From the human T2T-CHM13v2.0 reference genome, Homo sapiens, in assembly GCF_009914755.1 (NCBI RefSeq), contig NC_060935.1: a DNA stretch of 64,000 nt; one strand, written 5' to 3'. Both the position numbers and the translations under genes were made by a program. Positions 4,353 through 37,999 of the stretch are shown piece after piece. The first letter of the stretch is position 1, and each line of letters starts with the position of its first letter. A model generated the notes under the pieces. The model saw only the letters and a program-made list of their open reading frames with translations. It searched no databases and was not told where the DNA came from.

Positions 4353-5284
4353 ACAATTTCCTGTATGGCTCCCTGGGGGAGCACACTCCACACCCTACTG
4401 CCTGGGGCAGGGCTCTCCTCCTGGCATTAACCCTTGGGGTGCCTCGAGCAGACCTCCTGAGGCACAGGAGCCTCACACCCTCCCCAGGTCCTGGGCTCCT
4501 GCCTCTACTTTGTGCTCAGGCTTCTGCAGGCTCCTGAAAAGGCCAAAAACATCCCTGCCGATTTAGCGGTCTCCACTCGTTCCCTCCCTTGTGCCTCTGT
4601 TTCTTTAGGAAGCCACCTCCTCCAAGAAGTCTTCTCTACCTAAATGCACTTATTGGTGAACACATTAGCATTTACATTAGCAAATGACAACAGCAAGAAG
4701 GGGAAACTTTATCAGAGGATGAAATGATAAAGCAGATGCTTGTGTTTTTAGGAGTGGCTTTATGTCTGTAGGTAGACCCAGACTTCTAGGTCACTGTTAA
4801 TGGAGTGAGATGGAGGCAGGAGTAGTGAAATTTCTCTTGGGATGGGCTCCCATGTGGCTGCCCACAGGTATAGGCAGTTCCTCCTACTTGCCAAAAAGGG
4901 CTTCTATCTACTTCTCCACGGCCTGCCTTCTTTCTGCACTACGTCCTCGACTCAGCCACCTGCCCTCGGATGGACACACCTTTCTCCAGAGCCTTCCAGG
5001 CCCAGGCTGACTTTTTCAAAAGGAGATTTGTCCCAAAGAATGTCTTCATTGAGGAAGTGAAGAGGTTTCATTTTAACTACAGGGGTGCCTCACTTAATAC
5101 ACTAAATAGATTTCTGAAAGGTTGCAAGTAAAATGAAAAAAGAGAGAGAGAGAAACCCTCTCTTAAAAGCACTGAGAGCGTTTCTATTTAAAGCAATCTT
5201 ATGATAAATTCTTTTGCAAAGAATTGCTCTGGTCCCGAGCAACACATTTGCAGCTCTACCTTCCTGCTGGACATTTCAACCTAG

Positions 5285-5520
5285 ATAATAATAATGCTAA
5301 CATACTGACTGATTGGCTGCTAACTGTGTGCCAGGCATGTATTTGGGTGTGGCTGTGTGTATGTATATAGAAATATATATATACATTTGAATGTATAACT
5401 TTCTCACCACAACCCTATGATATAGGTTCTATATTATCCCCATCTAATGGATTAAGAAATTGTGTTATAGAGACATAAAGTAACACGGCTAGTAAGTTAC
5501 AAAGTCAGGATGGCCTACCA
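5285..5520 (-). mobile_element. MIR SINE
   Basis: 'actgtgtgccaggca...ctcaccacaaccctatgatataggttctatattatccccat...' is the reverse-strand MIR core. Confidence 0.7.
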
Positions 5521-5572
5521 GCAGTTCAACCAAAATTTACCTAAAACCAAATTTGTCATTTGTCCACCTTAG

Positions 5573-6254
5573 TGTAACCACCCAGTGGATTCATTTTGCC
5601 CACTGCCCAGATACAGCCAATTCATCAAGACAGGGGGATTGCAATAGAGAAAGAGATTAATTCATGCCAAGCCAGCTGAATGGGAGCCTGGAGCTTTATT
5701 ATTACTCAAATTGGTCCCCTCAAAAGTTCAGAGACTAGGGCTTTTCAAGGATAGTTTGGTGGGTAGGAGGCCAAGGAGTGGGGAGTTCTGATTGGTTGGG
5801 TGATAGATGAAATCATAGAGTCGAAGCCATCCGCTTGCACTGAGTTGGTTCCTGGGTGGGAGCCACAGGACCAGTTCATGAGTTCAGGTGGAGCCATCAG
5901 TAGTCAGAAATGCAAAAATCTGGAAAGACATCTCAAAAGGTCAATCTTAGATCCTACAATAGTGATGTTATCTGCAGGAGTAGATGGGGAAGTTGCAAAT
6001 CTTATAACTAATGTGTTAGTCCTACAGAGGCAGTCTGGTCCCCAGGCAAGAAGGGAATTTGTTTTGGGAAAGGGCTGTTATCATCTTTGTTTCAAAGTTA
6101 AACTATAAACTAAGTTCCTCCCAAAGTTAGTTCGAGCTGTCCCCAGGAATAAACGGGCAGCTTGGAGGTTAGAAACAAGATGGAGTCAGTTAGGTCAGAT
6201 CCTTTTCACTGTCATAACTTCCTCACTGTTATAATTTTTGCAAAGATGATTTCA
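5573..6254 (-). mobile_element. LTR8-family (ERV1) solo LTR
   Basis: TG...CA ends with a 4-bp TSD TTAG (5569-72 / 6255-58). The reverse complement starts tgaaatcatctttgcaaaaattataacagtgaggaagttatgacagtgaaaaggatctgacctaactgactccatcttg, the LTR8 5' end. Confidence 0.85.
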
Positions 6255-34466: not shown

Positions 34467-36065
34467 ATAATTTTCTTTAGAGAGCCTGCCTATATGGTTT
34501 CACATGCAACTTTCAGAAAAAATGCTCAGATCCATGTATTAGCACTCTGCAGAGCTCTGTCTCCTGTATTCAGCTGCCTCCAGGATATTTTGTAGAGAAA
34601 TATCACCACACTTTCACTTACTGAGAATACTCTGCCTACTTCAGTATCCACAGTATATACTCTTATACTGATATATTCCTTTAAAAAATTAAATTTCCAT
34701 TTCTCTATTCTGTTATCCCTGACATGACTCATGAATTCCCTCACACTTAGGATCAGGTCAGTCTGACCCCAAAACCCATTTTTAAAAAACTTATTTTATC
34801 ATCTGTTTTCCCAAGAACCCAATGACAAACTTCAGTTTAGGATGATATGTCTGTCATTTAGAAAGGGTAAGGTGTGCCTTCCTAAGTTTATGTAGGCCTG
34901 GTTTCATGGAATCACTACAACCAATGACTGCAAGCCTCTAGCTGATTCACTTATAAATACTGACAGTGACAGGTGATGAGAATGAAATGAATGTTTAGAA
35001 GAATTACATGCATCTCTGTTTATTTGCTCTTTTTGAAATTAATCTTAGAGTGTTTACAACATATAATGCTAAACACATGTCACTTATTCTGAACTTAACA
35101 CAGTGCATGGAAATGTTTATAAGAATTAGAGGCACTTCAGAGTCTGTCACAGGGATAGACTATTGACACAATCTGTTTATGCCTTCTGAAACCTGTATTT
35201 AGTCACGGAAAACTCTGTGTTGCTCTTTTATGAGTTCAATCGCTGAAATCATTATTGTTGCATCTGAGAAGAATGAGGTTGTTAATTGTGTTTACAATAA
35301 AATATGTGAATAAATAAGAGAGGTTAATATTTTTTATAATTGTTAGGATTTGCTAGAACAGCATTCACTCCACTGGGTACAACTAGTAGATTCTATTTCT
35401 CTTGTCAAGTTTTATTGATTGTTAATGACTGCTTGGAGCTCTGTGAGAAGAATTCTGAGACCGAGTCTGGTTTCAGCAAAAAACAGCATCGTGTTTGGTA
35501 GGAACCATCCACCACCAGTACAGGTGAAAGAGGTGATGGCTCCAGAGACTCATATTGTCTAACTTTTCCACAGAAGCAAAAGAGAATCAGCTTTATCGGG
35601 ATATCCAGCAATCATTCAAAATTTCCGAAACCAGTTGTTTCTCTTGGCCCTCCGCTCTGAACATTCTCATTTTTCTCTACTTTGCATTTCTCTCATGACC
35701 CCTATGCCCTTCTAGATGCCATTCCATCTGGCATAAAATTCTCTGTTTGGCTCTTAGTATCCTTATGATCTCTCCGCACCCCTCCTACACATATTATAGC
35801 CCATAGCTCCTGTGTGCCTAGCCTTCATTCAGGTTAGCCTGGTTTCCTTGGAGTCCCATGTGGAAATATTGATAACTTTGTCTGTTAGCATTTGTTTAAA
35901 GCTACCATTTCAGTCTGAAATGTCCACCCCCTTCCTCTCTGTCAATTCCATTTCGATCTAACTTTTAAGAGGTGGTACATATCCTTTATAAACTATGGAG
36001 TCTTCCCTGAATTTCCAAATTTTTATTTCCTAGAGACCTTGGCTTAGCTTCAGAAGACAGAAACA

Positions 36066-36091
36066 GATAAGAACAGATACTACACTGGATC
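36066..36091 (-). pseudogene. U2 snRNA fragment (nt ~25-50) captured at an L1 5' junction
   Basis: The reverse complement GATCCAGTGTAGTATCTGTTCTTATC matches recalled U2 GATCAAGTGTAGTATCTGTTCTTATC at 25/26. Confidence 0.85.
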
Positions 36092-36936
36092 AAAAAGTGG
36101 GCGAAGGATATGAACAGACACTTCTCAAAAGAAGACATTTATGCAGCCAACAGACACATGAAAAAATGCTCATCATCATGGGCCATCAGAGAAATGCAAA
36201 TCAAAACTACAATGAGATATCATCTCACACCAGTTAGAATGGCGATCATTAAAAAGTCAGGGAACAACAGGTGCTGGGGAGGATGTGGGGAAATAGGAAC
36301 ACTTTTACACTGTTGGTGGGACTGTAAACTAGTTCAACCATTGTGGAAGTCAGTGTGACGATTCCTCAGGGATCTAGAAGTAGAAATAACATTTGACCCA
36401 GCCATCCCATTACTGGGTATATACCCAAAGGAATGTAAATCATGCTGCTATAAAGACACATGCACACATATGTTTATTGTGGCACTACTCACAATAGCAA
36501 AGACTTGGAACCAACCCAAATGTCCAACAGTGATAGACTGGATTAAGAAAATGTGGCACATATACACCATGGAATATATGCAGCCACAAAAAAGGTTGAG
36601 TTCATGTCCTTTGTAGGGACATGGATGAAGCTGGAAACCATCATTCTCAGCAAACTATCTCAAGGACAAAAAACCAAACACTGCGTGTTCTCACTCACAG
36701 GTGGGAATTGAACAATGAGAACACTTGGACACAGGAAGGGGAACATCACACACCGGGGCCTGTTGTGGGGTGGGGGGTGGGGGGAGGGATAGCATTAGGA
36801 GATCTACCTAATGTAAATGACGAGTTGATGGGTGCAGCACACTAACATGGCACATGTATACATATGTAACAAACCTGCACGTTGTGCACATGTACCCTAG
36901 AACTTAAAGTATAATAAAATATATATATATATAAAA
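36089..36936 (+). mobile_element. 5'-truncated L1PA (L1PA4/5-like)
   Basis: ORF2 C-terminus ([23 protein letters not shown]...[16 protein letters not shown]), primate 3' UTR and a (TA)n tail. 14-bp TSD agaagacagaaaca (36052-65 / 36937-50). Confidence 0.97.
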
Positions 36937-37999
36937 AGAAGACAGAAACAATGTTATCTTTCTTAAAGCAAAAAAATAGACAAAATATGGATAATTTGGT
37001 AATGTTGGAAAATTTCAAGGAGCATGTTCTAGGCTAGGCTTCTAGAAAGACTTGCAAAATACCGCAGAACTTATCTTTGGAAACTGCTCCGTCTGCCCAA
37101 TCAGAAACGTAAGGAATCGGGAAATACCCTAGAATACTTAGTTTTAGGGACATGCCATTTTAGGTAATGTTCAGGGATCAGGGTACTACTACCACTATAA
37201 CTTGTATTAAGAGCCATATCACTCTTGCAAGATCACACCTGAAGAAAAAACTGGATGACCTATGCCGAGTATGTTGGCATTCAAGAAGCTAATGAATGGA
37301 CTCAGGAACATTCTGCATAGACCCCAGGGCTCTTGGTCATGCTTGCCAGCAGAAAACAGTCAATGCCTGAAAGAAGGCCCTACCTCTGCCTTTCAGATCT
37401 TACATGAGTGGGTCGGCTTAGCTGAACCTAAATCTCAAAACCCTGATGAAGGAGCCTGAGAGATGTAATTTTTTAGTCTTTCTAACAACTGCAATACAGA
37501 AAGGCACACCAGAAAGTACAGGTAGTGGGTGTGGGTTCCTTTCTACCATTTTTGTCCTATCTATCACAACTTGCTATATTTGAAGGTTGCAAATCCACTC
37601 CTGCCATGTTCCTGTTTAAAACCACTCAGTCACCTACAGTGTGAAGCCCTAACTCCGTAGCACGGCATATAAGGATCTCTGCTCTGCAAATGGGACACAG
37701 ACATGTGTGGCACCAGCATCTTACAGCATAAATGTAAAATAGGGTTTATTAGGCAGGGGTAGCCAGGATAGTTTGTCTAGCTTCAGGGCACTAGAGTTTC
37801 CTCCTCTGTTGTTTTACAAAGCAATTAAAAATATGGCTTCCTGATAGTGTACTTTCTGAGATCTGAGTCTTCTGATCCCTCCCTCACTTTTATCTGAAGG
37901 TTCTCCCTCCTATGCTCCTATCATCCCTGTCCTGCCCATTATGGATAGGAAACACCCATAAGTTTCTCCTTTGTGTGATGTTTTGTTGGAGAAGTAAGG

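What the first reader, a model, noticed from the sequence alone, without database searches (positions are those of the whole stretch)
36052..36950. L1 insertion with an ANTISENSE U2 snRNA fragment at its 5' junction: twin-priming in trans on a spliceosomal RNA?
Seen: between the 5' TSD copy (agaagacagaaaca, 36052-65) and the L1 start (atcaaaaagtggg, 36089) are 23 non-L1 bases. 36066-36091 is the reverse complement of U2 snRNA nt ~25-50 (25/26), including the branch-point recognition sequence GUAGUA. The TSD end 'aaaca' extends the match (U2 antisense would be 'aaact'), and the U2 piece overlaps the L1 through 'atc' microhomology. Knowledge: the classic snRNA-L1 chimeras (mainly U6) carry the snRNA in the same sense as L1, and twin priming normally inverts part of the L1's own RNA. 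Inference: the second-strand target 3' end annealed to a different RNA (U2), primed reverse transcription of ~25 nt, and was joined to the L1 cDNA by microhomology. A plus-strand transcript through this site would carry a sequence complementary to the U2 branch-site helix region. I cannot tell whether this class has already been catalogued.
Basis: partly seen in the sequence, partly recalled or inferred. Interest (0 to 1): 0.8.

Follow-up and report, generated by a model that had tools for sequence, protein, structure and literature searches.

The report
Inverted U2 snRNA piece on L1
A truncated L1 retrotransposon carries a short backwards copy of U2 spliceosomal RNA at its front end, a real but already described by-product of L1 insertion rather than a new kind of element.

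Summary
Window 36066-36091 (+) is the reverse complement of U2 snRNA nt 50-25 (25/26). With the end of the target-site duplication (TSD) the match is 29/31, nt 55-25. It lies between a perfect 14-bp TSD (36052-65 and 36937-50) and an 848-bp 5'-truncated L1PA 3' end. It does not match L1 itself.

The top-strand end of the target primed reverse transcription inside U2, and the product joined the L1 cDNA through 'atc' microhomology. This is not new. Doucet et al. 2015 described inverted, 3'-truncated U1/U2/U5/U6-L1 chimeras and proposed this twin-priming model. Law & Burns 2026 list 13 + 2 U2/L1 chimeras, 11 of them antisense, most ending at U2 nt 53-66.

This locus is not in their U2 sheets. Its 23-nt filler falls below their >25-bp gap rule and is not repeat-masked. 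It is therefore a short, uncatalogued member of a known kind. No function is indicated.

One side result may be new. Three independent loci (this one, an Alu chimera on chr3 and a fragment on chr4) are the only U2 pieces found that stop at nt 25-27. All three carry the same A29-to-C change.

The parts
36052..36065 (+). 5' copy of the 14-bp target-site duplication AGAAGACAGAAACA. Its last bases, AAAC(A), are complementary to U2 nt 55-52, with nt 51 mismatched.
36066..36088 (-). Unambiguous non-L1 filler: antisense U2 snRNA nt 50-28, including the branch-point recognition sequence (tactac at 36078-83). One mismatch at 36087 (U2 A29 read as C).
36089..36091 (.). 'atc' microhomology shared by antisense U2 (nt 27-25) and the L1 (ruler position about 5195). 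This is the junction of the two cDNAs.
36089..36915 (+). 5'-truncated L1PA-type 3' end (C-terminal ORF2 plus 3' UTR). It aligns to positions 5195-6047 of a 6049-bp full-length genomic copy used only as a ruler. Identity is 91-92% to that copy and 93-95% to the nearest copies.
36916..36936 (+). Degenerate A-rich tail, aaaa(ta)naaa.
36937..36950 (+). 3' copy of the TSD AGAAGACAGAAACA.
36048..36055 (-). Inferred first-strand nick site. The bottom strand reads 5'-TTCT/GA-3' (all pyrimidine/purine; 4 of 6 match the TTTT/AA consensus recalled and quoted in PMC4476161).
   Evidence: read; inference

Best explanation
This is a single L1 retrotransposition event of the inverted snRNA/L1 chimera type (twin priming in trans).

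1. L1 endonuclease nicked the bottom strand at TTCT/GA. L1 RNA was reverse-transcribed from its A-tail but only for about 850 nt.
2. After the top strand was cut 14 bp downstream, its free 3' end (..GAAACA) annealed by 4 nt to the single-stranded loop of U2 stem-loop IIa (G52-U55).
3. That end primed reverse transcription of U2 towards its 5' end for about 25 nt.
4. This second cDNA stopped at U2 nt 25-28, at the foot of stem-loop I.
5. It was joined to the L1 cDNA through an ATC microhomology.

Shown: the sequence anatomy, the U2 origin, the TSDs, the orientation and the microhomologies. Inferred: the order of events and the enzyme. The product is an inert insertion in an intron of a predicted lncRNA.
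For: - Anatomy: TSD / antisense U2 nt 55-25 / ATC / L1 5195-end / A-tail / TSD.
- One event: a single pair of exact 14-bp TSDs brackets both pieces. The junction 24-mer is unique in the genome at <=2 mismatches.
- Priming region: it lies in the unpaired loop nt 53-60 of the Rfam U2 structure.
- Relatives: catalogued antisense U2/L1 chimeras re-read in this genome show 2-3 nt TSD-to-U2 microhomology at nt 54-60 (chr6, chr13, chrX; chr15). The chr12 piece starts at about nt 56 without clear microhomology. The chr5 piece has the same junction, but its TSD was out of reach.
- 3' ends: 62 of 91 dispersed U2 pieces end at nt 50-66.
- Orientation bias: 9 of 13 plus 2 of 2 catalogued U2/L1 chimeras are antisense.
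- Published model: Doucet 2015 and Law & Burns 2026 propose the same mechanism.
- Not L1-derived: the filler's best match to a full-length L1 is 9 nt (E 0.64), against 29/31 to U2.
Against: - No empty orthologous site could be inspected, so a single event rests on the TSDs alone.
- The primer's last base (A, opposite U2 A51) is mismatched. Either L1 RT extended a mismatched end or the true TSD is 13 bp.
- The nick site is only a 4/6 match to the consensus.
- The A-tail is short and interrupted by (TA)n.
- The U2 piece is shorter than any catalogued one (nt 25-55, against starts at nt 1-18).
Confidence: 0.85

Rival explanations
1. Filler capture: a free U2 cDNA or DNA fragment was ligated by end-joining between the target end and the L1 cDNA, without being primed by the target DNA.
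For: Short filler DNA at L1 5' junctions is common (recalled). The terminal primer base is mismatched.
Against: Random capture predicts either orientation and any part of the 188-nt RNA. Catalogued chimeras are instead 11 of 15 antisense. The 3' ends of U2 pieces cluster in loop IIa, and relatives show microhomology to the TSD end there.
Confidence: 0.08
2. Two separate events: a pre-existing minus-strand U2 retro-fragment, next to which an L1 later inserted.
For: Lone 3'-truncated U2 fragments are frequent. Most of the 62 short pieces have no L1 beside them.
Against: The 14-bp TSD encloses both the U2 piece and the L1. The U2 piece abuts the TSD and the L1 with no spare bases.
Confidence: 0.03
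3. Template switch of the first-strand reverse transcriptase from L1 RNA onto an RNA antisense to U2, or a chance resemblance.
For: None found.
Against: No source of antisense U2 RNA is known (recalled). Chance is excluded: the reversed control pattern gave 0 hits at <=1 mismatch against 32 real, and 1 against 108 at <=3 mismatches.
Confidence: 0.01

Closest known systems
Inverted, 3'-truncated U1/L1, U2/L1, U5/L1 and U6/L1 chimeras explained by twin priming (Doucet et al. 2015, Mol Biol Evol, PMC4476161; section 6 and passages read)
   Same: The snRNA is in the opposite orientation to a 5'-truncated L1 and inside one pair of TSDs. It is truncated in a single-stranded loop, with complementarity to the insertion site. 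The EN site is judged in the L1 orientation.
   Different: The U2 piece here is shorter (about 26-31 nt) and does not reach the U2 5' end. Their Table S1 (PDF) could not be read, so I cannot say whether their single U2/L1 case is another locus.
Law & Burns 2026 catalogue of RNA-repeat/L1 chimeras (Cell Genomics, PMC13174262; sections 10, 11, 37, 39, 40, passages, Table S2 U2 sheet and Table S3 U2 rows read)
   Same: There are 13 + 2 U2/L1 chimeras, of which 11 are antisense. Nine of those eleven end at U2 nt 53-66. Twin priming is proposed for antisense 5S, tRNA-half and U5 chimeras. Six of their loci were recovered in my scan.
   Different: No chr11 entry appears in their U2 sheets. Their rules need a RepeatMasker snRNA within 50 bp or an alignment gap >25 bp. 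The filler here is 23 nt, and NCBI's mask starts only at 36087.
Classical twin priming (Ostertag & Kazazian 2001; known from citations in the two papers above and from recall)
   Same: The second-strand 3' end primes a second cDNA, which joins the first by microhomology and gives an inverted 5' segment.
   Different: The inverted segment here comes from U2 RNA, not from the L1 RNA itself. The best L1 match of the filler is 9 nt.
U6/L1 and U3/L1 sense chimeras (template switching or RtcB ligation; Law & Burns 2026 text; Moldovan 2019 seen in a search listing only)
   Same: An snRNA is fused to the 5' end of a truncated L1 within TSDs.
   Different: Those are in the same orientation as the L1 and, for U6, usually full length. 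Here the piece is antisense and internal.
Lone 3'-truncated ('tailless') snRNA retropseudogenes (Doucet 2015, section 8 passages)
   Same: Reverse transcription starts internally in a loop that pairs with the nicked target. The cluster of U2 3' ends is the same.
   Different: Those are primed at the first-strand nick and have no L1 attached.

Membership tests
Inverted (twin-priming-type) snRNA/L1 chimera | snRNA-derived segment directly 5' of a 5'-truncated L1 | tested here: met
   U2 nt 55-25 abuts L1 ruler position 5195.
Inverted (twin-priming-type) snRNA/L1 chimera | snRNA in the opposite transcriptional orientation to the L1 | tested here: met
   The Rfam U2 hit and BLAST are on the minus strand and the L1 is on the plus strand.
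Inverted (twin-priming-type) snRNA/L1 chimera | One pair of TSDs encloses both parts | tested here: met
   The exact 14-mer lies at 36052-65 and 36937-50 and nowhere else in the window.
Inverted (twin-priming-type) snRNA/L1 chimera | snRNA 3'-truncated in a single-stranded region, with complementarity to the target end | tested here: met
   AAAC of the TSD pairs with G52-U55. The loop is nt 53-60 in the Rfam structure line.
Inverted (twin-priming-type) snRNA/L1 chimera | L1 endonuclease-type nick site in the L1 orientation, and an A-tail | tested here: inconclusive
   TTCT/GA is 4 of 6 to the consensus, and the tail is aaaa(ta)naaa.
Inverted (twin-priming-type) snRNA/L1 chimera | Both parts arrived together (empty site in outgroups) | not testable with these tools
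   No primate genomes or multi-species alignments are held.
Classical L1 twin-priming inversion | Inverted segment is L1 sequence | tested here: not met
   The best match of 36052-36095 to a full-length L1 is 9 nt, E 0.64.
U6/L1-type sense chimera (template switch or ligation) | snRNA in the same orientation as the L1 | tested here: not met
   The orientations are opposite.
U2 snRNA gene or full pseudogene (Rfam RF00004) | Score at or above the gathering threshold of 46 bits | tested here: not met
   27.4 bits. Only nt 25-55 align well.

The most novel reading that the evidence does not exclude
On this reading, the single mismatch (U2 A29 read as C) is not later decay. It is an error made by the L1 reverse transcriptase during insertion. 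The primer would slip transiently on the A29-A30 doublet, next to the documented m6Am30, so that C28 templated a G. The mispaired cDNA then aborted at the foot of stem-loop I, near Gm25. Such fossil insertions would then record how L1 RT behaves on a natively modified snRNA.

Basis: three independent loci carry this same change (this L1 chimera, an Alu chimera at G000:C3:6220425 and a fragment at G000:C4:107939430). They are the only U2 pieces found that stop at nt 25-27. The 89 dispersed copies that read through to nt <=18, and the 9 array genes, do not carry it.
Probability: 0.3. Interest if true: 0.5.

Novelty: new member of a known kind. Interest (0 to 1): 0.3.

Why it matters
The locus adds one more example to a described class and has no sign of function. 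It also shows that current catalogues miss chimeras whose foreign piece is 25 nt or shorter. Short 'filler' at L1 and Alu 5' junctions may therefore hide more second-strand-primed cDNAs of abundant nuclear RNAs. If the recurrent A29-to-C change with early stop proves to be a reverse-transcriptase signature, it would offer a natural read-out of L1 RT fidelity and processivity on a modified, structured RNA.

Tried and rejected
- Inverted L1 origin of the filler: rejected (9-nt best match).
- A second copy of the junction, meaning a chimeric source element or a duplication: none at <=2 mismatches.
- A U2 gene carrying C29: within the 26-mer (<=1 mismatch) and 20-mer (<=1 mismatch) scans, the only exact or G-bearing hits were the three truncated pieces.
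- Wider hunt for more G29 pieces. The 16-mer gave 6 hits against 1 control, and the 4 new ones lack U2 flanks. The 14-mer gave 17 against 15 control, which is chance level. Ten new places were read and none is clearly U2-like: 5-12 of 30 upstream matches, with one (L122) ambiguous.
- TSD for the chr4 fragment (L114): none found.
- L015 (chr9) looks like another antisense U2/old-L1 chimera, but the L1 match is only 58% and no TSD was sought. It is not counted as sure.
- Other Rfam hits in 35500-37500 (SNORD53, RybB, gut-2, NEAT1_2; E 2.6-9.7) are noise.
- Garcia-Perez 2007, Gilbert 2005 and Buzdin 2003 are not held. Doucet's Table S1 is a PDF and could not be read.
- L1 subfamily naming was not possible without a repeat library. 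Only rough dating by pairwise distances was done.

Full report
**Observation**

The 14-mer AGAAGACAGAAACA occurs exactly twice in the window, at 36052-65 and 36937-50. At <=1 mismatch, 0.08 matches are expected from shuffles, and none of 100 shuffles reached the observed 3. Between the two copies lie four parts:
- 23 non-L1 bases (36066-88);
- 'atc' (36089-91);
- an L1 3' end running to about 36915;
- a degenerate A/TA tail.

The Rfam U2 model hits the minus strand at 27.4 bits, E 0.0048. Only the core GAUC(C)AGUGUAGUAUCUGUUCUUAUC(U)GUUU aligns at high posterior probability. The rest of the forced global alignment is noise, and the score is below the 46-bit gathering threshold, as expected for a fragment.

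I took an authentic U2 gene from the same genome, so nothing rests on recalled sequence. The window is T2T chr11, and the RNU2 array shows up on contig 17 as 9 copies about 6.15 kb apart. One copy, L009:266-456, scores 197 bits over the full U2 model. Against it, window 36061-36091 (minus strand) is U2 nt 25-55 at 29/31. The 26-mer 36066-91 is 25/26.

Genome-wide, the 26-mer has 32 places at <=1 mismatch against 0 for the reversed control. The canonical version has 108 places at <=3 mismatches against 1. Chance is therefore excluded.

**What it is not**

- The filler plus TSD (36052-95) matches a full-length genomic L1 by at most 9 nt (E 0.64) on either strand. It is not an inverted piece of L1.
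- The junction 24-mer is unique in the genome at <=2 mismatches. There is no chimeric source element or duplicate.

**The L1**

- It aligns to positions 5195-6047 of a 6049-bp natural copy used only as a ruler.
- Identity is 93-95% to its nearest relatives, with 40 of 8750 candidates scored.
- A star-tree branch length from pairwise distances to the 7 nearest copies is about 2.7%. This is biased low, because the copies were chosen for similarity.
- It is 94.5% identical over 183 nt to a copy that Law & Burns label L1PA5, 86.7% to an L1PA7 and 81.4% to an L1PA8.
- It is therefore a middle-aged L1PA, probably of the order of 10-25 Myr old (rate recalled). The subfamily was not determined.
- At 2.7% divergence, about 0.8 substitutions are expected in 31 nt. 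One mismatch could be ordinary decay, but see the side result below.

**Mechanism**

The bottom-strand nick inferred from the TSD is 5'-TTCT/GA-3'. It is all pyrimidine/purine and matches the consensus at 4 of 6 positions.

The 3' end of the 5' TSD copy..GAAACA, pairs through AAAC with U2 G52-U55. The last A faces A51 and is mismatched. In the Rfam structure line, nt 47-52 pair with 61-66 and nt 53-60 are the unpaired loop of stem-loop IIa. So priming sits in or at the edge of a single-stranded loop.

From there the plus strand reads antisense U2 down to nt 28. That point is the 3' foot of stem-loop I, where nt 24-26 pair with 7-9. The next bases, ATC, are shared with the L1. This is the twin-priming geometry, with U2 as the second template.

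**Relatives in this genome**

I fetched and classified all 91 dispersed places among the 100 listed. The other 9 are array genes, and 8 further matches were not listed.

| Feature | Count (of 91) |
|---|---|
| Ends at U2 nt 50-66 (modes 57 and 60) | 62 |
| Reaches past nt 150 | 20 |
| In between | 9 |

Eight places show antisense U2 abutting the 5' end of an L1 in the opposite orientation:
- this locus;
- chr6, chr13, chrX, chr15, chr5 and chr12, which correspond by chromosome, neighbourhood and U2 extent to Law & Burns entries;
- a weak chr9 case (L1 match 58%).

Three places are sense-type (chr20 and chr3, both catalogued, and chr18). A full-length U2 on chrX (L087) with an old L1 23 nt downstream in the same orientation was left unclassified.

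I read junctions and TSDs in five of the catalogued cases:

| Locus | TSD length | TSD end overlap with U2 |
|---|---|---|
| chr6 | 16 bp | ATA, nt 60-58 |
| chr13 | 14 bp | ATA, nt 60-58 |
| chr15 | 15 bp | ATT, nt 58-56 |
| chrX | about 14 bp | AA, nt 55-54 |
| chr12 | about 13 bp | none clear; U2 starts at about nt 56 |

Recurrent priming in one loop, usually with target complementarity, argues against random filler capture.

**Literature**

Doucet et al. 2015 (PMC4476161; section 6 and passages read) report U5, U1, U2 and one U6 chimera that are 3'-truncated and inverted relative to the L1 or SVA, within TSDs. They note complementarity to the insertion site and truncation in loops, and they propose twin priming on the snRNA.

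Law & Burns 2026 (PMC13174262; sections 10, 11, 37, 39, 40 and passages read) catalogue such chimeras. They propose twin priming for antisense 5S, tRNA-half and U5 cases.
- Their Table S2 U2 sheet has 13 rows, of which 9 are antisense. Seven of those nine end at nt 55-63.
- Table S3 adds 2 rows, both antisense.
- None is on chr11.
- Their pipeline needs a RepeatMasker snRNA within 50 bp, or an alignment gap longer than 25 bp. The filler here is 23 nt, and NCBI's repeat mask begins at 36087 (hub note). That explains the omission.

The finding is thus a short, uncatalogued member of a known kind. Searches behind this statement.

**Function**

The site lies in an intron of a predicted lncRNA (hub note). 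A plus-strand transcript would carry 29/31 complementarity to U2 nt 25-55. However, the 91 dispersed U2-derived pieces lie on either strand, U2 is very abundant (recalled), and no evidence points to any effect.

**Side result**

Only two of the 91 pieces start at U2 nt >=20: this locus (nt 25) and L089 at G000:C3:6220425 (nt 26).

L089 reads as follows:
- a TSD that matches its other copy at 15 of 16 positions;
- antisense U2 nt 53-26;
- an Alu lacking about 10 nt of its 5' end;
- an A-tail, then the second TSD copy.

It is therefore an antisense U2/Alu chimera.

Both loci carry G instead of T at antisense position 29. No other listed place does.

A search for a 20-mer carrying that G found one more locus, G000:C4:107939430. 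It is a U2 nt 27-66 piece, again stopping early. Its partner is unresolved and no TSD was found.

So all three G29 pieces stop at nt 25-27. The 89 dispersed read-through pieces and the 9 array genes have neither feature.

G is the base predicted if the primer slipped on the A29-A30 doublet so that C28 templated the next base. A30 is m6Am and G25 is 2'-O-methylated in human U2 (PMC7960923, table and passage read). An RT error followed by abortive synthesis is my preferred reading, at about 0.3 for the full modification-linked version. A lost U2 variant or coincidence remain possible. Wider 16-mer and 14-mer hunts gave only chance-level extra hits.

**Verdict**

The class is already published, and this locus is a new short member. 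Interest is low to moderate.

Noticed in passing
L089 / L109 = G000:C3:6220425-6220450 (minus strand): An antisense U2 (nt 53-26) / 5'-truncated Alu chimera with an A-tail and a 16-bp TSD (15/16). It has the same early stop and the same A29-to-C change as the window's locus. I did not look for it in the Alu tables of Law & Burns.
   Followed up: partly
L114 = G000:C4:107939430-107939449 (plus strand): A U2 nt 27-66 antisense piece with the same A29-to-C change and a stop at nt 27. The downstream partner is not a recognised repeat and no TSD was found.
   Followed up: partly
L025 (G000:C21:21637932) and L091 (G000:C4:158118958): Tail-to-tail arrangements. The 3'-truncated end of a U2 piece abuts the 3' end of an L1 in the opposite orientation, and in L025 the L1 has no A-tail. 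Twin priming does not explain this.
   Followed up: no
L015 = G000:C9:108031280: U2 nt 11-57 abutting an old L1 (58% to the ruler) in the opposite orientation. It may be another antisense chimera and did not obviously match a row of the catalogue's U2 sheets.
   Followed up: partly
L103 = G000:C12:21109949 (catalogued as U2:11-107): The TSD (AGAAAGCATCAAA) bounds a U2 piece of only about nt 11-57. The U2-like stretch at nt 86-107 lies outside the TSD, so the catalogued extent may join two things.
   Followed up: no
L026 = G000:C23:23068235, compared with window 36065: The chrX chimera also reads A where antisense U2 nt 51 should be T. There it lies outside the TSD. In the window that base could therefore be U2-derived rather than the last TSD base.
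   Followed up: no
91 dispersed U2 places: 62 of 91 are 3'-truncated at nt 50-66 (modes 57 and 60), and most have no retrotransposon beside them. This fits the lone 'tailless' snRNA retropseudogenes of Doucet 2015.
   Followed up: partly
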